From a virus: a stretch of DNA of 62,133 bases. Within the stretch, counting starts at the first letter, position 1. Each line of letters starts with the position of its first letter. A program made the position numbers and the translations under genes. Below are positions 3,299 through 57,865 of this stretch, one piece after another. The notes under the pieces are model-generated. The model saw only the letters and a program-made list of their open reading frames with translations. It made no database searches and was not told where the DNA came from. The stretch lies in the IMG/VR virus record IMGVR_UViG_3300046747_000361. One strand, written 5' to 3'.

Positions 3299-5079
3299 GA
3301 GTTGACAGTTGATAGATCACTCACGCACCAGTCACAGAGCAGCAGACGTGAGCTTGCGTTGCGCCCGAGTGCGCGCTCTGCGATCGCACCGGTTCTCGCC
3401 GCCGTCACGGCCTCCCAGTTCTCGCGCACAGTGAGAACGAAGGTCACTTCGACTGTTGGATCTTTCTGGCCCCTACGGGCGGTCCGGCCTATTGACTGGT
3501 CGAGCTCGGTGGACGAAGGTGGGGGTGTGATGTATAGGTTCTTCGACCACCTGTTTTGCAGGTTGCGACCCAGCATATTTGGTCGAACGGCGAGGACTGC
3601 ACCGGTGCGACCACTGAAGGCTTCGATTGAGCCGTGGTTAGCATCACATCCATTCGCGTGAAAGAACGGCATGTCGGCGAGCTGTGCCAGCTTGCGCCCG
3701 ACGGTTGGTTGCGTGACCCACACAAGGCCACGCTCACTGGCGAGCCATTCTGCCGCAAACTGCAAAACAGACAAGTCAAACCATTCCGTTTTTGTCGTGG
3801 GCTTGAAAGTTGGCTCGATCAACGTCCACGCATCGAGCAGGCCACCGTCGTCGATCTCACCGCGCCTAACAGCAGCCTTTACTTGGGCGGGTGTATCCAG
3901 GCCATACGTCTGCTCGTTGCCTACAATCGACCTGACGAAAGCGGACCACAATGCTCGCGTCTCGCGCCACTCGAGCGGCGGGATCGGGTCGAGCACCTTC
4001 GCGTATCCCGCGCCCAACTGCTTCAGGATCAGCGGCTTCGAATACAGCTCCTCGAAGCACCTCCCGTCGGGGAGAATTAGATCGTGCCAAGCCGAGTCGA
4101 CGAGGTCGTCCATCGCGGGGGTCATGTCAACTCGACAGTCAGCGATGTAAATCGAACAATCGATCGACTCGGCGCTACGGCTGTAGATATTGCCGCGCGT
4201 CTCTTCTACTCTCCGACCCACGCCCTCTCGGCACGCGGTCAGGTCTACCCCCCCTGAGCTGAATCGCGTCAGTGCCCCGAGAGGGCGTCTTTGTCCGCGC
4301 ACGCGAACGTTGAGCGCCTCGCACCACTCGCGAAGCACATCCGGCTCGCGTGGCAATGGAGAGTTTTCACCGAGCAGTAAATCCTGGACGTGGGCGTACT
4401 GGTCGAGGTCCACGCCAGGCGTGGCTGTGAGCACAACGACCGCGACTTCGGGGTGCGCCTCCTTATAGCGACGCAGGCGGCGGAAACGAGCACCCGATGG
4501 GCTTGCGAGGCTGTGCCCCTCGTCCACCACGATCAGGTCAGGCCGTAGCCTGTCCAGGTAGTCAGCGTGAGAAGCGAGTGACAGCTTTTCGACAGATAGA
4601 AACTTATAGCTGTGGCATATTTCCCAGTCCGTAGCCAACGCACGGAACTCTCTGACTGTCTTGTCTATGAGTCTGGCGTAGTTCAGAAATAGCGGAGTTT
4701 TTGCCTCGAGCAGAACTGGCGCCAGGGCCGTCACGAGTGTCTTGCCGCCGCCGAGACTGGCGATGACGTTGCAGGTACGAAGCTCCTCGATCTCGGCGAG
4801 AGCGGCGGCTTGCATCTCGAGCAGCCGGACACCTGGGTTCTTGGCAAACCGCGCCGTGAGCCGGTCGACGTGGTTCTGTGCGTCCTGCCAGCGCCGCCGT
4901 GGTAGCGCTTCGATGCGCTCGAACTCGAACGACTCGCGGACTGGTTCGGACAAAAAAATACGGCCAAGCGTACTATGCTTGGCCGTGGTGTTAGGATCGT
5001 GCCCCGCTTGCTCTAGCAGGGCGGCGAAGATAGACATGTGAGAGTGTGTACTAGACTTGGGACAACGCGTGTTGATCAA
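3271..5079 (-). CDS. SF2 DEAD/DEAH-box helicase
   Basis: SLGGGKTLV (Walker A), VVDEGHS (motif II), VLTATPG (motif III), IGRTARRGQ (motif VI). Alternative start ATG 5037. Confidence 0.85.
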   Translation of the reverse strand: MINTRCPKSSTHSHMSIFAALLEQAGHDPNTTAKHSTLGRIFLSEPVRESFEFERIEALPRRRWQDAQNHVDRLTARFAKNPGVRLLEMQAAALAEIEELRTCNVIASLGGGKTLVTALAPVLLEAKTPLFLNYARLIDKTVREFRALATDWEICHSYKFLSVEKLSLASHADYLDRLRPDLIVVDEGHSLASPSGARFRRLRRYKEAHPEVAVVVLTATPGVDLDQYAHVQDLLLGENSPLPREPDVLREWCEALNVRVRGQRRPLGALTRFSSGGVDLTACREGVGRRVEETRGNIYSRSAESIDCSIYIADCRVDMTPAMDDLVDSAWHDLILPDGRCFEELYSKPLILKQLGAGYAKVLDPIPPLEWRETRALWSAFVRSIVGNEQTYGLDTPAQVKAAVRRGEIDDGGLLDAWTLIEPTFKPTTKTEWFDLSVLQFAAEWLASERGLVWVTQPTVGRKLAQLADMPFFHANGCDANHGSIEAFSGRTGAVLAVRPNMLGRNLQNRWSKNLYITPPPSSTELDQSIGRTARRGQKDPTVEVTFVLTVRENWEAVTAARTGAIAERALGRNASSRLLLCDWCVSDLSTVNSWKGARWKR

Positions 5080-48448: not shown

Positions 48449-48728
48449 TGATGTTGCAATTTGCACAGGCAACGTCGAAACGCCCTTGCGGGTATCCCTG
48501 AGCCTTTAGATAGCGGTAGAGCTTCTGGCCAGAGAGTCCGCGGCGCTTGTCGATGTTCCCGTCGTTGTGTCGGTGCTCGAGGTTCAACGCGTCGAGGTCT
48601 TCACAGCCGCAGTAGATGCAGCGTGGTCCGCCGTACGCGTTGAACACGTCTCGCTTGGGGCGCTCACGACACTCGGCACATCTGACTCTATCTTGTCGGT
48701 CGCGTATTCGACCGCACCTGCACTGCAC
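48351..48728 (-). CDS. HNH endonuclease
   Basis: CIYCGCEDLDALNLEHRHNDGN ... CANCNIIK. Confidence 0.75.
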   Translation of the reverse strand: MQCRCGRIRDRQDRVRCAECRERPKRDVFNAYGGPRCIYCGCEDLDALNLEHRHNDGNIDKRRGLSGQKLYRYLKAQGYPQGRFDVACANCNIIKQIRGLQYLQTLRSTQPCRSPETCRFQPAST

Positions 48729-48801
48729 GCACTAGTATAGCAGTTAGTCATAGTCCCAAATATCCCAGCGCTCACACGGACGCTCACGCTTGCTCGCGTC
48801 T

Positions 48802-49152
48802 TCAGGTTTCTTGAGTAGTGCCTGCTTCAACGCCGCTCGTCTCACCCGAGTCAGCACTTTCCGCTCGGTCTTCTTCAGGTACTTGCGTGGACGTCGTCTG
48901 GGCATACAGTGATTCTAGCAGCTGGTTCTCATGCTCTTGAATGGCGAGCTGCGCGAGCAAGCACTTGCGCTCCTGGCGTAGTACATAGGTCTCGTAATCC
49001 GCGCGAGTCTCGGCCGATCGTACTTGCGCTACAAGCTGCTTGTTCATGGCGCGCCCCCAGGCCCCAACGTTATACAGCCAGCGGGCAACTCGATAGTCGA
49101 GGGCATCATCCGCTTGAGTTCTTGCGATTTGTGCGGGTAGAGCGAAGTACAT
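48802..49152 (-). CDS. hypothetical protein
   Basis: ORF track. Confidence 0.5.
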   Translation of the reverse strand: MYFALPAQIARTQADDALDYRVARWLYNVGAWGRAMNKQLVAQVRSAETRADYETYVLRQERKCLLAQLAIQEHENQLLESLYAQTTSTQVPEEDRAESADSGETSGVEAGTTQET

Positions 49153-49155
49153 AAA

Positions 49156-49189
49156 GAAAAAGCCCGCGCAGTTATTAGCTACACGGGCT
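49156..49189 (-). terminator. intrinsic terminator closing the Ro / tRNA-like transcription unit
   Basis: Minus strand AGCCCG-17 nt-CGGGCU followed by UUUUU. Confidence 0.5.
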
Positions 49190-49240
49190 GACGTAACATG
49201 GTCGGCGTCACTGACGAGGAAACTGCAGACACTTGGTTTT

Positions 49241-49284
49241 TACTGTTGGCTAGCCGCTCGCCTACAAGCCGGATTCGAACCGGG
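49241..49284 (-). ncRNA. third, degenerate permuted tRNA-like module
   Basis: T arm CCCGG-UUCGAAU-CCGGC, then UUGUAGG - 11-nt loop - CCAACAG (5 WC + 1 GU) and UA. No convincing D arm. Confidence 0.3.
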
Positions 49285-49337
49285 TACACAGTTTGGATTT
49301 ATGTAGTGCCTAATGCAAAATTCAGTGGTGGTGCCGG

Positions 49338-49409
49338 TAGCGGGTGTTGGATTCGAACCAACGGCCTCTTGGTTATGAGCCAAGCGAGATGCCACTTCTC
49401 CAACCCGCA
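49338..49409 (-). tRNA. tRNA-Met/Ile2-type (anticodon CAT) with U1-U72 mismatch
   Basis: Hand fold: UGCGGGU-UG-GAGA-AGUGGCA-UCUC-G-CUUGG-CUCAUAA-CCAAG-AGGCC-GUUGG-UUCGAAU-CCAAC-ACCCGCU-A. No encoded CCA. Confidence 0.8.
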
Positions 49410-49421
49410 ATAGTGAGAGTG

Positions 49422-49487
49422 TTACCAGCGAGTAGTCGCTCGAGACTTGTTCATGTAAAAAATGTAGTCCCGAACTGGATCTGGTAA
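49422..49487 (-). ncRNA. short stem-enclosed RNA (possible YrlB-like short Y RNA)
   Basis: Helix UUACCAG (49487..49481) / CUGGUAA (49428..49422) resembles the GUUGAC/GUCAAC helix of the two larger modules. It is followed by the same ...CUCUCACU motif. Confidence 0.25.
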
Positions 49488-49489
49488 CC

Positions 49490-49637
49490 GTGAGAGTGAG
49501 CTGTTGACGAGTAATCGCTGATACAACTACGGCGTTCTACCACTGAACTATACCCCAAAACATCGAGGTAGTTGGATTCGAACCAACGACTTCCGGCTCC
49601 AAATGCGATGTAGTACCAACTGAAATTCAACAGCGAA
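49490..49637 (-). ncRNA. Y RNA-like RNA 2 with circularly permuted tRNA-like core (49534..49587)
   Basis: Order: T arm (GUUGG-UUCGAAU-CCAAC), closed acceptor (UACCUCG-AUGUUU-UGGGGUA, 5 WC + 2 GU), U8A9, D arm (GUUC-AGUGGUA-GAAC). Enclosed by the 8-bp helix GCUGUUGA/UCAACAGC. Confidence 0.45.
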
Positions 49638-49644
49638 AAGGGTG

Positions 49645-49851
49645 CCACCGACGAGTGAGCGTTGACAGTATTTTTTGGAGCTCTACCAACTGAGCTACGT
49701 CGCAACTTGCGAAACAACGGCTGGGCTCGAACCAGCGACCGCCCCATTAGCAGTGGATGTAATGCCAACTAGAAATTCGGTAGCGTAAAGACTGTGACTG
49801 ACTGCTATGCCTGACAGAAAACGGGGGTGTTTGTTGTCAACAGCCAGTCAC
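49645..49851 (-). ncRNA. Y RNA-like RNA 1 with circularly permuted tRNA-like core (49680..49736)
   Basis: Order: T arm (GCUGG-UUCGAGC-CCAGC), closed acceptor (CGUUGUU-UCGCAAGU-UGCGACG), U8A9, D arm (GCUC-AGUUGGUA-GAGC). Enclosed by the helix GGCUGUUGACA/UGUCAACGCUC with a C-C mismatch. Confidence 0.45.
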
Positions 49852-49858
49852 CCGATAC

Positions 49859-51556
49859 TTATAGCGCCAGAGCCTCTATCTTTGCAACCCAATTCTTTAC
49901 GTTGCCTGACAAAAACTCCGACACGACTTCGAACACAGAATCACTAAAGCCGCCCACGTTGAGACGGTCAGGTGCACTCGTCGCTTGTGCCGAACTCATC
50001 GCTGCAATGTCGATGCACACGAGCTTGGCGTGTGGCGCGCGCTTCTTGAGCTTGGCCCATTCGGCCATCATCCCCGTCGTGTTGCTGTAGTAGCTGCCGG
50101 CCCACGATTCGTTGTCGCTCACGAAGATCACGACGTCAGGGTTGAGCCCGCGCTTGTTGAGCTCGATGAGGGGCAACTCGCACTGAGTGCCGCCCCCGCC
50201 CAGCTTCGCCAGCTGCTCTGCGAAGTTCATCACCGTCATGTTCTTTTGCGCCTCGGCGATGAAGCAACGGGTGTCGAAGGGCAACACGATCGACTTCTTC
50301 GACCTCTTCATGAACGCAGCTGTGAACAACGCCGCTGCGTCTACATATCGCACCTTCGTCGTTGCGCCCTTGCGAACGCCCGTAATCGGGCTGTTCATCG
50401 ACCCCGACACGTCGAGACAGATCGCGACGTTCGCGTCGAGGAAGGGCACGTTCTCAAGCGCGTGCTCCATCGCGTCATGAAGTGCCTGGACGATGAGCTC
50501 GGGCATCGTCTCCCCCGAGGGCGGCGTGAACTGCCAGGGCTGGGTCTTGGTCTCCTGCACGGCCAAGTAGGCCGACAAGATCTGGTAGGGGAAGGTCTTC
50601 GCCCGCTGTACGAGCTCCTTGTCGCGAAGCCGGTCGGCGATGAGCTCGACCATCGCGGGCTTCTCGAGCACGCCATGACGACGAAACGTGTTCAAATTCT
50701 TGACAGTCATCGTCCAGGACGCGCGAGCCGCGACCTCCGCCCATTCGTCATTCGACAGTCCGAGCGCATCTAGGAGCCTGAAATCAACGTCGGGCACAGC
50801 CCCGGTACGCGTCCGCTTGAACTCTTCGTACTGCTTGATGGTGTCGGGGAGAAGGTCTGCATTGTACCTCGTGACCGTGACAGACTCGCCATCGAGCGTG
50901 TACGGTAGGTCGAACTGCCGCTGACGCGCAATGATGGTGTTGAGGAGGGCCTTGTCTCGGGGCTTGCAGACCCGAACCAGATCGCCCGTGAGGTAGCCAT
51001 AGAGGGCACGACGAGCCGGGTCGTTCGGCTCGGGTCGCAGGCGCCGGATGACATACGCGAGGCTTGGATCTTCGCCGATACTGTCACGCAGGAGGGCCAT
51101 CGGGTGCCTGCGATTGAGCCAATCCTCGCAGAGGCGCCGGGGCTGGCTCCCGAAGTTCTTGCGACCCGTCACGCCAGAGCGGATGATCTGCACGAAGTTT
51201 CGAAGCATCTTGCCGTTGTCGATCACATGAGGGAACGCGCGACCGAACCACTGCGGGGTGTGTCGAGCAGCAAGCACGGCCAGCAGGTACGCCGGCATGT
51301 CCTTGAGCTTGCCCTGTTGCCGCGCATACGCAGCACACTTGGCGAGGAACTCATCGCTGACGCCCTCGGTGAGCTTCTTGACGTCGTCAAGTTGCTCAGT
51401 GGCTGCTGTGTAGTAGGTACTGCCGAAAAACCCAGTGGCTGCATACTGGGCGAGGGCCTCTTTGTTGGAGAGCGCGTAAGCGGCGCCCCCTGCCTTGTTT
51501 TTCACGACCTGTGGCGATAGAAGGGACTTGTCCACGATGCCCCCATCGTGGGACAC
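49859..51556 (-). CDS. rsr: Ro60-related protein (TROVE domain + vWA/MIDAS domain)
   Basis: N-terminal VKNKAGGAAYALSNKEALAQYAATGFFGSTYY (TROVE signature). C-terminal VAICLDVSGSMNSP (MIDAS DxSxS). 565 aa. Confidence 0.85.
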   Translation of the reverse strand: MSHDGGIVDKSLLSPQVVKNKAGGAAYALSNKEALAQYAATGFFGSTYYTAATEQLDDVKKLTEGVSDEFLAKCAAYARQQGKLKDMPAYLLAVLAARHTPQWFGRAFPHVIDNGKMLRNFVQIIRSGVTGRKNFGSQPRRLCEDWLNRRHPMALLRDSIGEDPSLAYVIRRLRPEPNDPARRALYGYLTGDLVRVCKPRDKALLNTIIARQRQFDLPYTLDGESVTVTRYNADLLPDTIKQYEEFKRTRTGAVPDVDFRLLDALGLSNDEWAEVAARASWTMTVKNLNTFRRHGVLEKPAMVELIADRLRDKELVQRAKTFPYQILSAYLAVQETKTQPWQFTPPSGETMPELIVQALHDAMEHALENVPFLDANVAICLDVSGSMNSPITGVRKGATTKVRYVDAAALFTAAFMKRSKKSIVLPFDTRCFIAEAQKNMTVMNFAEQLAKLGGGGTQCELPLIELNKRGLNPDVVIFVSDNESWAGSYYSNTTGMMAEWAKLKKRAPHAKLVCIDIAAMSSAQATSAPDRLNVGGFSDSVFEVVSEFLSGNVKNWVAKIEALAL

Positions 51557-51624
51557 CTACAGAGTGCGCGCAATCTTTTTCGTATGGGTTCCCACAGAAA
51601 AGAAATTCGGTAAAGTCACACCTC

Positions 51625-51984
51625 ATGAAGACGATACAGCTGGAGCTTCAGGTTCACGCGATCGACAGACCGGAAGGAATCTCGGACGACGACTGGGAAT
51701 GGGTTGCGGCACTCAAGACTCTGAAGATAGCTGCGGGTTATATGTATCTCGCTGTGTTTCAGGATAAGGACGACTGGCGAGTCTATGGCTACCTTCATAA
51801 GGGCGGCTTGTCTCCCTATTACGTAACTCGTAGCTCTGAGCGTGAGGCCCGCTCGTTCATCGAGCAGACGTTCCCAGAAGCGACTCACGCTCACAGTCTG
51901 GCGTTCATGGCCGCGCCTAGTTTTCGTGCGCTGTATCGTTGGGGCGAAGGCAAGGTAGACGTGAGGCAGGGGCACGAGTGCTGA
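51625..51984 (+). CDS. hypothetical protein
   Basis: Start reassigned to ATG 51625. Confidence 0.5.
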   Translation: MKTIQLELQVHAIDRPEGISDDDWEWVAALKTLKIAAGYMYLAVFQDKDDWRVYGYLHKGGLSPYYVTRSSEREARSFIEQTFPEATHAHSLAFMAAPSFRALYRWGEGKVDVRQGHEC

Positions 51985-52208
51985 TGTCTAGTCCGTTCAA
52001 ACAAGCACTGATGCGCGCAGGCATGGACGGGCCGGTACAAGTAAGACGTGTCTCACCAGGCGACACGATCATGCTGAGCGTGACTCACCTCAATCAGATG
52101 CAGCACATCGAACTGAGTGAACACAACGCGTCTCGCCTTATATGCGCGCTCGCGTTCATGATCGGACTGCCGATCTCGAACAAGGTACTAAAGGCAGTGA
52201 AGCTGTGA
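51984..52208 (+). CDS. hypothetical protein
   Basis: Start reassigned to ATG 51984 (TGATG overlap). Confidence 0.5.
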   Translation: MSSPFKQALMRAGMDGPVQVRRVSPGDTIMLSVTHLNQMQHIELSEHNASRLICALAFMIGLPISNKVLKAVKL

Positions 52209-54025: not shown

Positions 54026-54242
54026 GCTCTGGCCCTTCGGCGACGACACACGCCGAGTCGTCATCGCTGAGGCTGAGATCTGGAACGACGGCAACCATCC
54101 TCATCGCCCTCTCTTCGGTGCGTACAAGGGCGTGTTCCACACGACCGGTGCCAAGACGCTGTACCTTCAGGTCAAGGACCACGAGCGAGTGCTAGGAGCG
54201 TGGTCGCTGCTGGGCAAGTTCCTTTCAAGCCACGTGCCGTAG
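54006..54242 (+). CDS. hypothetical protein
   Basis: GTG 54006; 3' end overlaps the convergent recombinase gene by 18 nt. Confidence 0.4.
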   Translation: MLKITIELWPFGDDTRRVVIAEAEIWNDGNHPHRPLFGAYKGVFHTTGAKTLYLQVKDHERVLGAWSLLGKFLSSHVP

Positions 54243-55907
54243 GGGTACGCGCAGATGCACAACGGGAACGTCCTCTGGGCGGATAACCGACCACAGGTCT
54301 TTCCCGTCTGTGCTCCTCGGCGGGCGGCGAGCGTCACAGTCGGGATCGCCCAAGAGTGCCGCTGGGCTGACTTGAGCTGTCAAGCCCTCACGCGAAAGCT
54401 GCATTTGCCCGACTAGCAGCGTCTGCAGGACTTTCCGCGCCAGTTGCGGTTCCGTTGAAAACGCGTCCACAAGCTGAGTCACTTGGGCCTGTGCTAGCGC
54501 CTCGAGTTCGTCGAGGCTCGACAGGGCAAGTTCCGCAGCAGCAGGGGCCACGGCTAGCTGTTGCTCAACCGCTTTGAGACGCGCGTTACGTTCCGTGATG
54601 GCAGTCACCAGGGCATCGGCGCTGTCAGTCGCCGCGAGAGCTGCAGCGAGGCGGCCTAGCTCTTGCTTGAGCTTCTTCGCCTCGAGCTCGAGGACCGCTC
54701 GTTCATCGGGCGCCTTGTCAATACGTTTCGCGAGAATCTCACGTAGCATGCCAAAACATGAGCTCACCACCGAGGGTGCAAGTGCGTTCTGCACAGCAAG
54801 AGCCAACTGCCCGTCAACCCCCTTCATGTCGACGATCGCATTGTTCGTGCATGCAGCTTTGCCGTGATCCCTATAGCGACCGCAGATGTACGAGAGGTTG
54901 TCGCGCTTGCTGCGATAAATGCGCTTGCTCCCGTAAATGGGGCCGCCACAGGTCGCACACCGAGCGAGCCCGACGAGCAAGTACTTGGGCGCGTGGCCCT
55001 TACGGCTAACCGCATTTCCGTATCGAGGGTTTCGAGCGAGCCGCGCTGCAACCGCGTCCCACAAATCCTGAGAGATGATAGCCGGGATGGGATTGACCAC
55101 GTGCTCAGACGCATCGAGACGTACGCGTACCTTCGTACCTCCCCGGTACATGTCCTGCGTCTTTCCACGAACGAGCCGTCCGATATAACGCTCTCGTGTG
55201 AGCAGTCCACGCACCGTTTGCCTCGACCACAGCGCCGCTGATTGTTCACCGCGACGATTGGGGGGTGCTATGTGCTGTGCGTTGAGCTCGTGCGCGATCT
55301 CCCGCAGACCTGCGCCATTAGCGTAGGACGAGAAGATTCGCCGCACAATCAGCGCTTCATCCTCTCGCACAACAAACTGCTTGTCGATCGTCTGGTACCC
55401 GTACGGAGCACCGCAAGTGGCAAGACCTTGTTTTGCTTTGTCTTGCAGGTGCTCGCGTGTACGGTCGCTTGTCGTCTCCCGTTCGGCTTCGTCCTTGTAT
55501 CCAAGAACGTGGACGATCAACCGATCCTGTGCCGTGGCCAGCTCGACGACTTGCTTTGTGCGATAATAGACGACTTGGCAACCGCACTCGCGCAACTCTT
55601 GGAGAAGCGCTGCGGTTCTGACCATGTCTCCGCCAAGTCGGCTGCTGTCTCGAACAACTAGAACCTTGAACTCGCCCCGTTTGGCGGCGACCACAAGTTT
55701 GTTCAGGCCATGACGCTTGACGAATTCGGCGCGGGAAATGCCGTCGTCTGCGATCTCAAGTACGACCTTGTATTCCTGTTCAGCACAAAAAGCTGTTCCG
55801 CCGTTGTGCTGGACGTCGAGAGAGTCTTCTTGCCCCTCGTCTTTGCTACGTCGCCCGTACAGGCAAGCTAGCGTCCCTGGCGGCGGAAGAAGGTGTGCTG
55901 CTCTCAT
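54225..55907 (-). CDS. large serine recombinase (integrase)
   Basis: LYGRRSKDEGQEDSLDVQ (Y-x-R-x-S), VLVVRDSSRLGGD, recombinase domain, zinc ribbon CATCGG...CGRYRDHGKAAC, C-terminal coiled coil. Confidence 0.85.
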   Translation of the reverse strand: MRAAHLLPPPGTLACLYGRRSKDEGQEDSLDVQHNGGTAFCAEQEYKVVLEIADDGISRAEFVKRHGLNKLVVAAKRGEFKVLVVRDSSRLGGDMVRTAALLQELRECGCQVVYYRTKQVVELATAQDRLIVHVLGYKDEAERETTSDRTREHLQDKAKQGLATCGAPYGYQTIDKQFVVREDEALIVRRIFSSYANGAGLREIAHELNAQHIAPPNRRGEQSAALWSRQTVRGLLTRERYIGRLVRGKTQDMYRGGTKVRVRLDASEHVVNPIPAIISQDLWDAVAARLARNPRYGNAVSRKGHAPKYLLVGLARCATCGGPIYGSKRIYRSKRDNLSYICGRYRDHGKAACTNNAIVDMKGVDGQLALAVQNALAPSVVSSCFGMLREILAKRIDKAPDERAVLELEAKKLKQELGRLAAALAATDSADALVTAITERNARLKAVEQQLAVAPAAAELALSSLDELEALAQAQVTQLVDAFSTEPQLARKVLQTLLVGQMQLSREGLTAQVSPAALLGDPDCDARRPPRSTDGKDLWSVIRPEDVPVVHLRVPLRHVA

Positions 55908-56058: not shown

Positions 56059-56231
56059 ATCAGTTTCTTGCCCACGCCGATAGGTGCCGGCAACTTCCCA
56101 CGCGAATGCCTGAGCCGAATCGCGGCGGGGCTCGTCTTGAGCAACGCCGCGAGTTCATTGACTGTCAGCAGCTCAGGGAGCCGGGGCTGCGCTTCCAACT
56201 TCGCAAGTCGATCGAGTATTTCCTGGATCAT
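56019..56231 (-). CDS. AlpA/Xis-type (MerR-like) HTH DNA-binding protein, excisionase candidate
   Basis: LLTVNELAALLKTSPAAIRLRHSRGKLPAPIGVGKKLMWRASDVAGWL. Confidence 0.55.
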   Translation of the reverse strand: MIQEILDRLAKLEAQPRLPELLTVNELAALLKTSPAAIRLRHSRGKLPAPIGVGKKLMWRASDVAGWLAR

Positions 56232-57321
56232 AACTCATGCTCGGCATCTTCGCGATCGCAGCCTTGAGGGTCTTGGACGCAGCGCGCCCGTAGACCTGGC
56301 GGACCATCGTGATGTCCTCGTGCCCTAACAAATCGGCACAATCCTCGAAACTCACACCAGCATTACGCATCAGACTACAGAACGTTCGGCGAAGGTCGTT
56401 GAACGTGAGCCTTGCCGGTAACGTCTCGTCGAGGTCGGCGTCAGCTGCTACTAACTTGGCTCTGGCACGCTTCCAAGCAGCGTTGATGTCGCGATTACCG
56501 CTATGCCACTCACTGAAACCGTCCGTGCGTCGCGTCAGTACCGAGACCATCACATCGTTCAGGGGCAAAACACGCTTGGCGCCTGTCGTCTTGAGCGTGA
56601 TCCTGTCGAGCTCGTCGACGTAGAGCTCACGCTTGGTCAGGTTCACACGGCCGCGAGTAATCGTGAGCAGCTCACGGCGACGCAAGCCCGTATTGACGTA
56701 GGCTAGAACGTCGTCGCGGCGGGTCGGGTCGAGCTCGTCAAGCAACGCGAAAATGTGCACGACTTCCTCAAGCCACGAGTCACCAGGCGTATAGAAGTGC
56801 TTACTGTTCACGAACCCAGCAACCTTGTATTTGCTTACGTCGTAGCCGGCGAGGCGTAGAGCTTGCCTGAGCACACGATGTTCCTTCTGGATCGTGTGTC
56901 GGTCTGCGCCCTCGCCGAGACGTGCGATCGTGTAAGCATCAAGATTGATGTCGGCGACGTTACTCGGCAATAACCGTAAGAGATGCGCCGCTCTGTCCGT
57001 GTGGAAGCGCACAGTGTTCGGGCGCGCGTTGCTGAGTACGTCGTGACCGGCGAGCAACGCGAACGCACCAGCAAGGGTGCAGGGGCCTTTTACAGGCTTC
57101 GCAACAGGACCCGCGGCGCGTTCACGTTCGATCGTCTTGGCCGCATTGAGTGCAGCTTCAAAGTCAGTCTGATGTGTGGTCGTCTCGTATCTTACACCCT
57201 GGTAGTCGTAACCCCAGAATGTCCAGACCTTACAACCTTTTCGCTTTCGCAACCGTTTTTTTAAAGGGCTTCTCTTTTCCACGAGGTTGAATCTGAGTGA
57301 TTGTGGAAGCGTCATCAACAT
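56173..57321 (-). CDS. tyrosine recombinase (phage integrase family)
   Basis: TGLRRRELLTI (Arg I), FNDLRRTFCS (H/x-x-x-R), LLGHEDITMVRQVYG (His, catalytic Tyr). Start uncertain (57321/57315 or later). Confidence 0.85.
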   Translation of the reverse strand: MLMTLPQSLRFNLVEKRSPLKKRLRKRKGCKVWTFWGYDYQGVRYETTTHQTDFEAALNAAKTIERERAAGPVAKPVKGPCTLAGAFALLAGHDVLSNARPNTVRFHTDRAAHLLRLLPSNVADINLDAYTIARLGEGADRHTIQKEHRVLRQALRLAGYDVSKYKVAGFVNSKHFYTPGDSWLEEVVHIFALLDELDPTRRDDVLAYVNTGLRRRELLTITRGRVNLTKRELYVDELDRITLKTTGAKRVLPLNDVMVSVLTRRTDGFSEWHSGNRDINAAWKRARAKLVAADADLDETLPARLTFNDLRRTFCSLMRNAGVSFEDCADLLGHEDITMVRQVYGRAASKTLKAAIAKMPSMSYDPGNTRSTCEVGSAAPAP

Positions 57322-57865
57322 GACCGTCCAGGATCGCCAGAACATCCGTGTAATTCTGAGCGACGAACGCGGCGAAGTTTGAGAACTTCGTATTCCACGG
57401 CTGCAGGTAGAGCACGCCGCGTTCGGGCGTCTTCTCCATGTTCTCCCACTTGTCGTCAATCAGCCAATCGCCCGCGATCAAATCCTTGTCGTGCGTGAAC
57501 ACGATTCGATAGTTGCGCCGATTGAGGAAGTGATCGAGCACTCCGTAACGCGCCTCTACCCAGTGATCGAGGCCCCGCCAAGGCGCAGTTGTGAATACGA
57601 CCTTGTTCTCAAACCCCAGATGCTCGACGAACGACTGTGCTTGCGGGTAGAACGGGATGTGGTACCCGATGCGATCCTTACGGACGAGCATCTTGTTGAT
57701 GAACTCCCATTCACTCTTCGTGAGTTCCATCGCATCCTTGAAGTCGTAAGACTTCCACGACTCGGGCGGTGGCACCTTCCGTGCGAGCATGCGCTGCACG
57801 AACTTGTGTAGCGTCGCGGCGAGGTTGAGAACTACGCCGTCGCAATCAAGCAGGATTGTTTTCAT
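57230..57865 (-). CDS. 5'(3')-deoxyribonucleotidase (HAD superfamily, NT5C-like)
   Basis: ILLDCDGVVLN (DxDxV motif I), TTAP, WLIDDK. Confidence 0.65.
   Translation of the reverse strand: MKTILLDCDGVVLNLAATLHKFVQRMLARKVPPPESWKSYDFKDAMELTKSEWEFINKMLVRKDRIGYHIPFYPQAQSFVEHLGFENKVVFTTAPWRGLDHWVEARYGVLDHFLNRRNYRIVFTHDKDLIAGDWLIDDKWENMEKTPERGVLYLQPWNTKFSNFAAFVAQNYTDVLAILDGHVDDASTITQIQPRGKEKPFKKTVAKAKRL

What the first reader, a model, noticed from the sequence alone, without database searches (positions are those of the whole stretch)
49490..49851. Two tandem circularly permuted tRNA-like modules (T arm - closed acceptor stem - D arm), each clamped by a conserved GCUGUUGA/UCAACAGC-type helix
In both units the order on the transcript is T arm, 7-nt 3' acceptor strand, a 6-8-nt loop, 7-nt 5' acceptor strand, U8 A9, then a canonical D arm. 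This is the reverse of a normal tRNA and leaves no free CCA end. The acceptor halves pair within each unit (4 WC + 2 GU, and 5 WC + 2 GU) but not in the canonical 5'-half/3'-half combination.

Each unit is enclosed by a homologous helix: GGCUGUUGACA/UGUCAACGCUC with a C-C mismatch, and GCUGUUGA/UCAACAGC. Each helix is followed by a shared CUCACUC motif and is a candidate Ro-binding stem. Each unit also carries a conserved 5' segment GAAUUUC(U)AGUUGG.A.UACAU. A tandem duplicated YrlA-like pair plus a shorter third helix-enclosed RNA (49422-49487) is unusual.
Basis: partly seen in the sequence, partly recalled or inferred. Interest (0 to 1): 0.75.

Follow-up and report, generated by a model that had tools for sequence, protein, structure and literature searches.

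The report
Phage Ro60 operon's Y RNA array
The two "backwards tRNAs" are real but belong to a known class, YrlA-type Y RNAs, which partner the RNA-binding protein Ro60; here they lie in a four-member Y RNA array with a tRNA-Met, directly after a phage Ro60 gene.

Summary
Two tandem modules (49786-49642 and 49636-49498) have the order T arm, closed acceptor hairpin, U8-A9, D arm. They start 75 nt downstream of a Ro60/Rsr gene (49859-51556) in a temperate phage.

- **Family:** Rfam's YrlA model matches both end to end. The scores are below its gathering cut-off (45.8 and 30 bits against 69; E 1.2e-8 and 4.5e-4). A model built from the phage modules hits bacterial YrlAs that pass Rfam's cut-off.
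- **Covariation:** it strongly supports the fold.
- **One error:** It occurs only in this window and costs about 20 kcal/mol. The real helix is GCUACCGA/UCGGUGGC, and UGUCAAC pairs locally with GUUGGCA.
- **Third RNA:** 49488-49421 is a Y RNA with the same stem and no tRNA-like head.
- **Rest of the array:** tRNA-Met (49409-49338), a fourth Y RNA with a T arm and a degenerate D arm (49327-49209), and a terminator (49189-49151).
- **"Unusual":** tandem arrays of 2-6 such modules follow Ro60 in six related phage contigs and five bacterial genomes, so this claim does not hold.

Verdict: a new member of a known kind. "Circularly permuted tRNA" is already the published description of YrlA.

The parts
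49859..51556 (-). rsr: Ro60 (TROVE + vWA) orthologue, 565 aa; the protein partner encoded directly upstream of the RNA array
   Evidence: Pfam vWA_Ro60 2.1e-17 and TROVE 1.2e-8. PHROG 850 RNA-binding protein 1.3e-31. PDB best hits: D. radiodurans Rsr 2NVO 4.9e-22, Ro60 9NEN and 1YVP, phage phiLo Ro60 9KOP.
49794..49851 (-). H0: local hairpin 8 nt after the rsr stop codon. It is not a Y RNA; role inferred as an mRNA 3'-end or processing hairpin.
   Evidence: MFE -26.1 kcal/mol, z -3.63. Present in L001, L003, L017 and L019, shortened in L016, absent in L018. One compensatory change (U-A to C-G) read by eye. R1 model score only 5 bits.
49644..49784 (-). Y RNA 1 (YrlA type). H1 49784-49777/49651-49644; H2 49769-49763/49667-49661; UACAU 49761-49757; V hairpin 49756-49744; T arm 49736-49720; closed acceptor hairpin 49719-49698; U8A9 49697-49696; D arm 49695-49680.
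   Evidence: Rfam YrlA 30 bits, E 4.5e-4, model positions 1-114. R1 model 140 bits. The MFE reproduces the fold. Covariation. Coordinates.
49500..49634 (-). Y RNA 2 (YrlA type). H1 49634-49627/49507-49500; H2 49620-49614/49523-49517; UACAU 49612-49608; T arm 49587-49571; 7-bp closed acceptor hairpin 49570-49551; U8A9 49550-49549; D arm 49548-49534.
   Evidence: Rfam YrlA 45.8 bits, E 1.2e-8. R1 model 127.1 bits. Covariation. Coordinates.
49421..49488 (-). Mini Y RNA: the same two-helix stem (H1 GUUACCAG/CUGGUAAC, H2 GUUCGGGAC/GUCUCGAGC, UACAU) capped by a 15-nt U/A-rich loop, with no tRNA-like head.
   Evidence: MFE -23.6 kcal/mol, z -4.66. R1 model 33 bits, E 8.4e-8, aligned end to end with the head deleted. 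Orthologues in L001, L003 and L016-L019.
49338..49409 (-). tRNA-Met (CAU) embedded in the array, 11 nt after the mini Y RNA and 10 nt before Y RNA 3.
   Evidence: ARAGORN. Rfam tRNA 62.7 bits. A tRNA-Met occupies the same position in L016, L017 and L018.
49209..49327 (-). Y RNA 3: the same stem (H1 CACUGA/UCAGUG, H2 UAGGCAC/GUGUCUG, UACAU) with a reduced head. The head has a T arm (49283-49269, loop UUCGAAU) and a degenerate D-like hairpin (49262-49248) but no acceptor hairpin.
   Evidence: R1 model 32.6 bits, E 1e-7, end to end. Orthologous modules in L016, L017 and L018. Its own MFE is not better than shuffles (z -0.36).
49151..49189 (-). Intrinsic terminator closing the rsr-Y RNA array (11-bp stem plus U tract).
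   Evidence: Terminator scan. Fold -22.8 kcal/mol, z -3.3. An equivalent stem plus U tract ends the array in all six related loci.

Best explanation
This is the non-coding half of a phage Ro60 (rsr) operon: an array of four Y RNAs and one tRNA.

**What is shown**
- All four Y RNAs share one stem. It consists of an 8-bp closing helix H1, an asymmetric internal loop that opens with an invariant AU, a 7-10-bp helix H2 with an invariant G.U, and then an invariant UACAU.
- The RNAs differ in the head that sits on that stem.
- Units 1 and 2 carry the YrlA head, a tRNA-shaped domain. Its acceptor stem is closed by a loop. The position of its anticodon stem is open and continues into H2.
- All partners of the tRNA tertiary pairs are present in both units: U8-A14, G15-C48, G18-U55, G19-C56 and U54-A58.

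**What is inferred**
- The array is transcribed together with rsr, up to the terminator at 49189-49151.
- The transcript is cut into separate RNAs. RNase P and 3' processing at the embedded tRNA-Met do part of this, and trimming back to each H1 does the rest.
- Each RNA binds phage Ro60 through the conserved stem and internal loop.
- Each head tethers Ro60 to a partner. By analogy with the Deinococcus and phage phiLo Ro60-Y RNA-PNPase complexes, the partner is host PNPase or a tRNA-binding enzyme. This would redirect RNA decay or repair during infection or lysogeny.
- Unit 2 has a 7-bp acceptor hairpin like that of M. smegmatis YrlA. It may additionally be nicked by RNase P and receive CCA.
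For: **Gene context**
- A Ro60 orthologue lies 75 nt upstream of unit 1 on the same strand.
- No sigma-70-like site was found in 48700-52200. One strong terminator lies at the end of the array. Spacers between modules are 9-11 nt.

**Family match**
- Rfam YrlA aligns to both units over model positions 1-114 (E 1.2e-8 and 4.5e-4).
- Model R1, built from the phage modules, hits bacterial YrlAs that pass or nearly pass Rfam's cut-off, at 67-83 bits.

**Covariation**
- In 11 YrlA-type modules aligned by MAFFT, 93.7% of cells are paired and 24 of 37 pairs show compensatory change. No shuffle in 500 reached this, and slid controls gave 34-45%.
- In 28 modules of all head types from 7 phage loci, H1 is 98.2% paired with 7 of 8 pairs compensatory. 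H2 is 97.3% paired with 6 of 8 compensatory.
- Within the window alone, H1 of units 1 and 2 differs by three double compensatory changes.
- Invariant positions of the stem across the 28 modules are listed.

**Permutation test**
- In-silico re-permutation turns both units into ARAGORN tRNAs. Native units give 0 genes found, and 0 of 50 shuffled controls were called a tRNA.

**Published precedents**
- YrlA is defined as a tRNA mimic found within 4 kb of Ro60 on the same strand.
- It is modified by TruB and DusA. M. smegmatis YrlA is cut by RNase P and receives CCA.
- Deinococcus makes a Yrn2-tRNA-Asp-Yrn1 polycistronic precursor (PMC4201824).
- Phage phiLo Ro60 binds two phage Y RNAs and host PNPase (PMC12135203).
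Against: - Both units score below Rfam's gathering cut-off (45.8 and 30 bits against 69).
- The published 5' motif GNCGAAN0-1G is only partly kept: ACCGAAU in unit 1 and GUUGAAU in unit 2.
- There are no expression, processing or Ro-binding data for this phage, and the host is unknown.
- Co-transcription rests on the absence of promoter-like sites in a crude sigma-70 scan.
- The effector bound by any YrlA head is still unknown in the literature, so the functional step is an analogy.
- Y RNA 3 does not fold better than shuffled sequence (z -0.36).
Confidence: 0.85

Rival explanations
1. One reading: each unit is clamped by a homologous GCUGUUGA-type helix. Unit 1 would span 49843-49658 through a long-range helix GGCUGUUGACA/UGUCAACGCUC.
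For: In the window the two 11-mers are complementary at 10 of 11 positions. GCUGUUGA occurs both at 49841-49834 and as the true 5' strand of unit 2.
Against: - None of the six orthologues of unit 1 has an upstream complement above background (8-9 of 11, at scattered positions). In L017, L018, L003, L001 and L019 the orthologue follows a different module altogether.
- In L016, whose Ro60 is 97% identical, the upstream strand reads GGCUGUUGUGA, with no compensating change.
- Forcing the clamp costs about 20 kcal/mol.
- UGUCAAC has a local partner, GUUGGCA, which is kept or compensated in the 28 aligned modules (97.3% of H2 cells paired).
- My estimate: about five repeated 8-mers are expected by chance in an 800-nt stretch.
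Confidence: 0.03
2. The units are decayed or tandem tRNA genes. The T arm of one remnant and the D arm of the next would mimic a YrlA hit, which is the false positive that Chen et al. 2014 warn about. No Y RNA function would be involved.
For: - The T and D arms are canonical.
- A true tRNA-Met sits in the same array.
- Relatives carry tRNA-model hits inside the array.
Against: - No anticodon arm or partner half precedes the T arm or follows the D arm in either unit.
- The acceptor halves pair across a loop of only 6-10 nt, with compensatory changes between relatives (helix 6).
- Each unit is enclosed by H1 and H2, which covary across 28 modules, including modules with no tRNA-like part at all.
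- The location directly after Ro60 recurs in 7 phage and 5 bacterial loci.
Confidence: 0.04
3. The structured repeats are 3'-UTR elements of the rsr mRNA, such as stabilisers, attenuators or REP-like repeats, and not separate trans-acting RNAs.
For: - They lie between the rsr stop codon and the terminator.
- No internal promoter-like site was found.
- The hairpin H0 directly after the stop codon looks like an mRNA 3' stabiliser.
Against: - Conserved tRNA tertiary-pair nucleotides and a modular stem with invariant single-stranded motifs (AU, UACAU, G before H1) are not expected of stabilisers.
- The family link to YrlA is specific.
- Characterised bacterial Y RNAs are themselves cut from polycistronic precursors that include a tRNA (PMC4201824).
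Confidence: 0.05

Closest known systems
YrlA (Rfam RF02553): Y RNA-like A of Salmonella Typhimurium, M. smegmatis and mycobacteriophages
   Same: - It is encoded next to Ro60 on the same strand.
- A Ro-binding stem carries a head with the order V, T arm, closed acceptor hairpin, U8A9, D arm.
- It has a YUAY motif before the V region.
- The nucleotides for the tRNA tertiary pairs are present, and there is no free CCA end.
   Different: - Scores fall below Rfam's cut-off (45.8 and 30 bits against 69).
- The 5' GNCGAA motif is relaxed to (C/U)(C/U)(G/A)(G/A)AU.
- The stem has its own invariant UACAU and an invariant G.U pair.
- Unit 1 has a 13-nt V hairpin that Rfam treats as an insertion.
- Two copies sit in tandem with two further Y RNAs on the same stem.
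Hairpin-type second Y RNAs: S. Typhimurium and M. smegmatis YrlB, D. radiodurans Yrn2
   Same: - The mini Y RNA (49488-49421) is a long bulged hairpin with a small U-rich loop.
- It is encoded beside a tRNA-like Y RNA and Ro60, as described for YrlB and Yrn2 (PMC4201824).
- Y RNA 3 resembles M. smegmatis YrlB, and D. radiodurans Yrn1, in keeping a T arm without a full D arm.
   Different: - No sequence match: the Rfam YrlB model gives no hit with E up to 10 in 48800-50300.
- Here the hairpin RNA shares its whole stem with the YrlA-type RNAs of the same array.
D. radiodurans Yrn2-tRNA-Asp-Yrn1 polycistronic precursor
   Same: Y RNAs and a genuine tRNA lie in one closely spaced same-strand cluster next to rsr. 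tRNA processing would help to release the Y RNAs.
   Different: - The tRNA is tRNA-Met here, and tRNA-Gln in the alphaproteobacterial loci L007 and L011.
- The array lies downstream of rsr, not upstream.
- It has four Y RNAs, not two.
- Co-transcription is inferred here, not shown.
Thermus phage phiLo Ro60 with Yrl1 and Yrl2 (PDB 9KOP, 9L5Y)
   Same: A phage-encoded Ro60 has several phage-encoded Y RNAs beside the gene. This is the precedent for a phage Ro60-Y RNA particle that engages host PNPase.
   Different: - The phiLo RNAs lie upstream of the gene, and no tRNA-like head is reported for them.
- The Ro60 proteins are distant: phiLo Ro60 matches the window's protein only at E 3.7e-8, over the C-terminal half.
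Genuinely permuted tRNA genes (Cyanidioschyzon merolae) and two-piece tmRNA (from general knowledge)
   Same: The gene order places the 3' half before the 5' half.
   Different: Those are processed back into functional, aminoacylatable molecules. Here the acceptor stem stays closed by a loop and the anticodon arm is replaced by the Ro-binding stem.

Membership tests
YrlA-type Y RNA (Chen et al. 2014; Rfam RF02553) | Encoded within 4 kb of a Ro60/TROVE gene and on the same strand | tested here: met
   rsr lies at 49859-51556 (-). Units lie at 49784-49644 and 49634-49500 (-), so unit 1 starts 75 nt after the stop codon.
YrlA-type Y RNA (Chen et al. 2014; Rfam RF02553) | Score at or above Rfam's curated gathering cut-off (69 bits) | tested here: not met
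   Scores are 45.8 bits (E 1.2e-8) and 30.0 bits (E 4.5e-4), both full-length alignments. This is an operational cut-off, not a structural feature. Bacterial neighbours of related Ro60 genes pass or nearly pass it (83.3, 73.2, 72.4 and 68.9 bits), and the phage-derived model R1 hits them at 67-83 bits.
YrlA-type Y RNA (Chen et al. 2014; Rfam RF02553) | Near-invariant T and D stem-loops in the order T, then D, with a closed 'AS' hairpin between them | tested here: met
   Both T arms have 5 bp, with loops UUCGAGC and UUCGAAU. The D loops AGUUGGUA and AGUGGUA contain G18G19. The AS hairpins have 6 and 7 bp, and 6 of 7 AS pairs show compensatory change among 11 modules.
YrlA-type Y RNA (Chen et al. 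2014; Rfam RF02553) | Nucleotides for the tRNA tertiary interactions, including the 15:48 Levitt pair | tested here: met
   Read from the sequence: U8, A14, G15 with C48 (the last base before the T stem), G18, G19, U54, U55, C56 and A58 are present in both units. Re-permuted constructs are called tRNA by ARAGORN. The three-dimensional fold itself was not tested.
YrlA-type Y RNA (Chen et al. 2014; Rfam RF02553) | 5' motif GNCGAAN0-1G (proposed Rsr contact) and YUAY before the V region | tested here: inconclusive
   YUAY is present (UUAC in unit 1, CUAC in unit 2). The 5' motif is only partial: ACCGAAU and GUUGAAU, with neither the flanking G nor, in unit 2, the C. Across 28 family modules this site reads (C/U)(C/U)(G/A)(G/A)AU, with the AU invariant.
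YrlA-type Y RNA (Chen et al. 2014; Rfam RF02553) | Bound and stabilised by Rsr; modified by TruB and DusA | not testable with these tools
   This needs Ro60 immunoprecipitation or EMSA, plus mapping of pseudouridine and dihydrouridine.
YrlB (Rfam RF02565), considered for the mini Y RNA | Sequence and structure match to the Salmonella YrlB model | tested here: not met
   There is no YrlB hit with E up to 10 in 48800-50300. The mini Y RNA works like a hairpin-type Y RNA but is not a member of that narrow family.
   ARAGORN finds only tRNA-Trp and tRNA-Met in the window, and finds no gene in the isolated units. The Rfam tRNA model gives no hit on either unit with E up to 10.

The most novel reading that the evidence does not exclude
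In this phage lineage the Y RNAs may form a cassette array. One conserved Ro60-binding stem carries interchangeable heads of at least four kinds:
- a permuted tRNA mimic;
- a normal-order tRNA cloverleaf with a GNRA tetraloop in place of the anticodon loop (seen in relatives only);
- a T-arm/D-arm 'elbow' without an acceptor stem;
- a bare U-rich loop.

Cassettes are swapped between phages whose Ro60 proteins are 97% identical. On this reading, the array is a fast-evolving toolkit. It would let one phage Ro60 ring be aimed at several host tRNA-handling or RNA-decay factors, for example to blunt RNA-targeting defences. It would not be a simple duplicate of the bacterial Rsr-YrlA pair.
Probability: 0.3. 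Interest if true: 0.6.

Novelty: new member of a known kind. Interest (0 to 1): 0.33.

Why it matters
- **What it adds:** a new phage lineage to the set of viruses that carry their own Ro60-Y RNA system. No close relative exists in GenBank phages; the nearest phage Ro60 there is Myxococcus phage Mx1 at 40% identity.
- **Why the lineage is useful:** its 28 modules share one stem and differ in their heads, which gives a clean natural experiment.
  - H1 is kept only as a helix.
  - The AU that opens the internal loop, the G.U pair in H2 and the UACAU are invariant. This points to where Ro60 probably reads the RNA.
- **Open question it touches:** the partner of the YrlA tRNA-like head is still unknown. 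An array that varies the head on a fixed stem is a convenient handle for pull-downs.
- **Annotation:** these units are not tRNA genes. The normal-order variants in relatives will be miscalled as tRNAs or pseudo-tRNAs.

Tried and rejected
rejected on energy and on comparison with relatives.
- **Ordinary, intron-containing or dimeric tRNA reading:** rejected.
- **H0 as another Y RNA:** rejected. It has no UACAU, and model R1 scores it at 5 bits.
- **Further Y RNAs elsewhere in the window:** none found. Apart from the array, model R1 gives only an E 0.28 partial hit overlapping tRNA-Trp.
- **Close relatives in GenBank phages:** none. Only the tRNA-Met matched.
- **Y RNAs near Ro60 in described phages:**
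  - Myxococcus phage Mx1 and Streptomyces phage Lululemon have no YrlA hit within 3 kb.
  - Mycobacteriophage Sparky has one partial hit.
  - The viral contig L004 (Ro60 39% identical) gave no YrlA hit in two scans, and L005 and L006 none in one. Model R1 also found nothing in L004.
- **Literature gaps:** the supplementary tables of Chen et al. 2014, which give copies per phage, are not held. The 2020 Annual Review on bacterial Ro60 is not held either.
- **attP or tRNA-fragment origin near the integrases:** considered and set aside. Every T arm sits inside a covarying Y stem, and the integrases are more than 4 kb away.
- **Pfam and PHROGs on the flanking small ORFs:** nothing found, and no RtcB, RtcA or PNPase gene next to rsr.
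Full report
**1. What is there**

The feature is on the minus strand. ARAGORN and Rfam at gathering thresholds find only two tRNAs in the window: tRNA-Trp at 6594-6519 and tRNA-Met at 49409-49338.

A permissive Rfam scan of 48800-50300 finds two full-length matches to YrlA (RF02553).
- 49633-49498: 45.8 bits, E 1.2e-8.
- 49783-49642: 30.0 bits, E 4.5e-4.
- Both are below the family's gathering score of 69.
- No tRNA-model hit falls on either unit, even at E up to 10.

The ORF directly upstream on the same strand (49859-51556, 565 aa) is a Ro60 orthologue.
- Pfam: vWA_Ro60 2.1e-17 and TROVE 1.2e-8.
- PHROGs: family 850, RNA-binding protein.
- PDB: the best match is D. radiodurans Rsr (2NVO, 4.9e-22), followed by Ro60 9NEN and 1YVP, then Thermus phage phiLo Ro60.

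The window is a temperate phage genome. It encodes a portal protein, a helicase-primase, a helicase, an endolysin, and both a serine and a tyrosine integrase. GenBank phages hold no close relative.

**2. Anatomy** (coordinates)

After the rsr stop codon (49861-49859) the minus strand carries, in order:

| Element | Coordinates |
|---|---|
| Hairpin H0 | 49851-49794 |
| Y RNA 1 | 49784-49644 |
| Y RNA 2 | 49634-49500 |
| Mini Y RNA | 49488-49421 |
| tRNA-Met | 49409-49338 |
| Y RNA 3 | 49327-49209 |
| Intrinsic terminator | 49189-49151 |

Spacers between modules are 9-11 nt. A simple sigma-70 scan finds no promoter-like site in 48700-52200.

The four Y RNAs share one stem:
- an H1 helix (8 bp in Y RNAs 1 and 2 and the mini Y RNA, 6 bp in Y RNA 3);
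- a 5' loop strand that starts with AU;
- H2 of 7-10 bp;
- UACAU;
- the head;
- the 3' strand of H2;
- a 9-11-nt loop strand ending in CUCG;
- the 3' strand of H1.

In units 1 and 2 the head reads: V region, T arm, closed acceptor-like hairpin, U8A9, D arm, then 2-3 bp that correspond to the top of an anticodon stem. The bases needed for U8-A14, G15-C48, G18-U55, G19-C56 and U54-A58 are all present.

Native units are not called tRNAs by ARAGORN. I re-permuted them in silico, using an artificial anticodon arm that keeps the native junction pairs. Both were then called tRNAs, against 0 of 50 controls with shuffled pieces.

**3. The error in the finding**

That upstream strand is part of the local hairpin H0 (-26.1 kcal/mol, z -3.6).

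- The 219-nt region folds into H0 plus the H1/H2 form of unit 1 at -74.7 kcal/mol. Forcing the clamp gives -54.6 kcal/mol.
- UGUCAAC pairs with GUUGGCA (H2).
- Unit 1 is closed by GCUACCGA/UCGGUGGC.
- Six orthologues of unit 1 in related contigs keep the local H2 partner. None has an upstream complement above background.
- In five of those six, the orthologue is preceded by a different module.
- The 'shared CUCACUC' is therefore not homologous between the units. The aligned motif is ACUCG, just before the 3' strand of H1.

**4. Comparative evidence**

Ro60-based searches returned the following loci:
- viral contigs L001-L003, with Ro60 70% identical;
- metagenome contigs L016 (97%), L017 (86%), L018 (83%) and L019 (71%);
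- bacterial genomes L007-L012 (42-52%).

Every phage relative carries an array after rsr that ends in a terminator. The composition differs:

| Locus | Array after rsr |
|---|---|
| Window | H0, YrlA, YrlA, mini, tRNA-Met, Y3 |
| L016 | H0, YrlA, normal-order tRNA-like Y, tRNA-Tyr, mini, tRNA-Met, Y3 |
| L017 | H0, mini, YrlA, normal-order, mini, tRNA-Met, Y3 |
| L018 | same as L017, without H0 |
| L003 | H0, mini, mini, YrlA x3 |
| L001 | H0, mini, mini, normal-order, YrlA x2 |
| L019 | H0, mini, mini, a Y module with another head, normal-order, YrlA |

Covariation results:
- A MAFFT alignment of the 11 YrlA-type modules gives 93.7% paired cells. Of 37 pairs, 24 show change on both sides. No shuffle in 500 reached these values, and slid controls gave 34-45%.
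- A covariance model built from that alignment (R1) scores the window's mini Y RNA at 33 bits (E 8.4e-8) and Y RNA 3 at 32.6 bits (E 1e-7). Both align end to end through the stem.
- R1 finds nothing else convincing in the window.
- Across 28 modules of all head types, H1 is 98.2% paired with 7 of 8 pairs compensatory. H2 is 97.3% paired with 6 of 8 compensatory. That alignment is fitted to the model, so it leans towards the structure. The MAFFT result does not have this bias.
- Invariant in all 28 modules: the AU after H1, the G.U and A-U pairs in H2, UACAU, and the G before the 3' strand of H1.
- R1 also hits bacterial YrlAs that pass or nearly pass Rfam's cut-off (L008, L007, L011, L009) at 67-83 bits. 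This ties the phage units to the curated family from the other direction.

**5. Is tandem unusual?**

No. The bacterial loci carry several tandem YrlA-model hits after Ro60:
- Rfam finds two in L009 and L010, and three in L007, L008 and L011.
- Model R1 adds a weak further hit in L007, L009, L010 and L011.
- In L007 and L011 a tRNA-Gln sits between the modules.

The literature points the same way:
- Chen et al. 2014 report 355 putative YrlAs in 254 bacteria and 22 phages, listing all copies within 4 kb of Ro60.
- They describe hairpin-type second Y RNAs (YrlB, Yrn2).
- They show a Yrn2-tRNA-Asp-Yrn1 precursor (PMC4201824).
- Wang et al. [quoted passage not shown]
- A 2025 paper shows that Thermus phage phiLo Ro60 binds two phage Y RNAs and host PNPase (PMC12135203).

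In three described phages that I sampled, I found at most one partial YrlA hit within 3 kb of Ro60. Arrays of 4-6 modules may therefore be at the rich end for phages. I could not do a census.

**6. Mechanism**

- **Shown:** the gene context, the folds and the family relationship.
- **Inferred:** co-transcription with rsr; release of individual RNAs by tRNA processing and trimming; Ro60 binding through the conserved stem and internal loop; and tethering of Ro60 through each head to PNPase or a tRNA-binding factor.
- **Possible extra step:** unit 2 has a 7-bp acceptor hairpin, like M. smegmatis YrlA. It could be nicked by RNase P and receive CCA.
- **Not tested:** none of the functional steps could be tested here.

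**7. Verdict**

This is a correct rediscovery of a known RNA class in a new phage lineage, with one mis-assigned helix. The array extends beyond the reported coordinates. The most interesting residue is the cassette-like variation of heads on a fixed Ro60-binding stem among close relatives.

Noticed in passing
L016:4319-4457, L017:4997-5133, L018:4909-5046, L001:5945-6083, L019:4036-4174: Relatives carry Y-stem modules whose head is a normal-order tRNA cloverleaf: D arm, a 4-5-bp 'anticodon' stem capped by a GNRA tetraloop (GAAA or GCAA), then a T arm. The Rfam tRNA model scores these heads at 36.8-44.3 bits, above its cut-off of 29. ARAGORN reports 'tRNA-??? (ca)' for the L001 and L019 modules only. 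The topology resembles D. radiodurans Yrn1 and is the opposite of YrlA. Annotation pipelines would miscall these as tRNAs.
   Followed up: partly
window 49634-49500 versus L016:4319-4559: The window and L016 have Ro60 proteins 97% identical and share Y RNA 1, the mini Y RNA, tRNA-Met and Y RNA 3. The second slot differs: a YrlA-type unit in the window, and a normal-order module plus tRNA-Tyr in L016. The head of the window's unit 2 is closest to L003 module a, which has an entirely different H1. This suggests cassette exchange within the arrays.
   Followed up: partly
window 49338-49409 (-): The embedded tRNA-Met (CAU) has a U1-U72 mismatch at the top of the acceptor stem and an A11:U24 pair. 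The acceptor ends, including the mismatch, are the same in L016-L018. These are initiator-like traits, but only two of the three G-C pairs typical of an initiator anticodon stem are present. Its identity (initiator, elongator or tRNA-Ile2) was not resolved.
   Followed up: no
window 49744-49756 (-), and the same position in L016, L017, L018, L003, L001 and L019: The V hairpin of the Y RNA 1 type has a 3-4-bp stem with compensatory changes (CCA/UGG, CCG/CGG, UCUA/UAGA, UCAU/AUGA). Its 7-nt loop mostly reads N-U-N-N-U-A-A, which resembles an anticodon loop with U33 and A37.
   Followed up: no
window 49151-49189 and 48802-49152 (-): The U tract of the array's terminator overlaps the ATG (49152) of the next minus-strand ORF (116 aa, no family hit). 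In the related loci an ATG likewise lies in or right after the U tract; I did not check whether it opens an ORF there. Termination may be leaky or coupled to expression of the downstream gene.
   Followed up: no
window 54225-55907 and 56173-57459 (-): A serine recombinase-type integrase and a tyrosine integrase lie side by side, about 2.7 kb upstream of rsr on the same strand.
   Followed up: no
L012:1-3800 (Pyrinomonadaceae MAG contig): About 20 tRNA-model hits and one YrlA hit (3650-3779, 62 bits) are packed into the 4 kb upstream of a Ro60 gene. This is a tRNA island joined to a Ro60-Y RNA locus and may be phage-derived.
   Followed up: no
L007:5550-6378 and L011:5551-6265: Cypionkella sinensis and an alphaproteobacterial MAG carry the order YrlA, YrlA, weak YrlA-like hit, tRNA-Gln, YrlA directly after Ro60. 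Their Ro60 proteins are 43-47% identical to the window's. This is the same 'tRNA inside a Y RNA array' layout as in the phage.
   Followed up: partly
L004, L005, L006 (IMG/VR contigs, Ro60 39% identical): Rfam YrlA found no Y RNA within 4 kb of Ro60 in any of the three, and model R1 found none in L004 (the only one of the three searched with R1). These loci may hold a divergent, undescribed Y RNA type.
   Followed up: no
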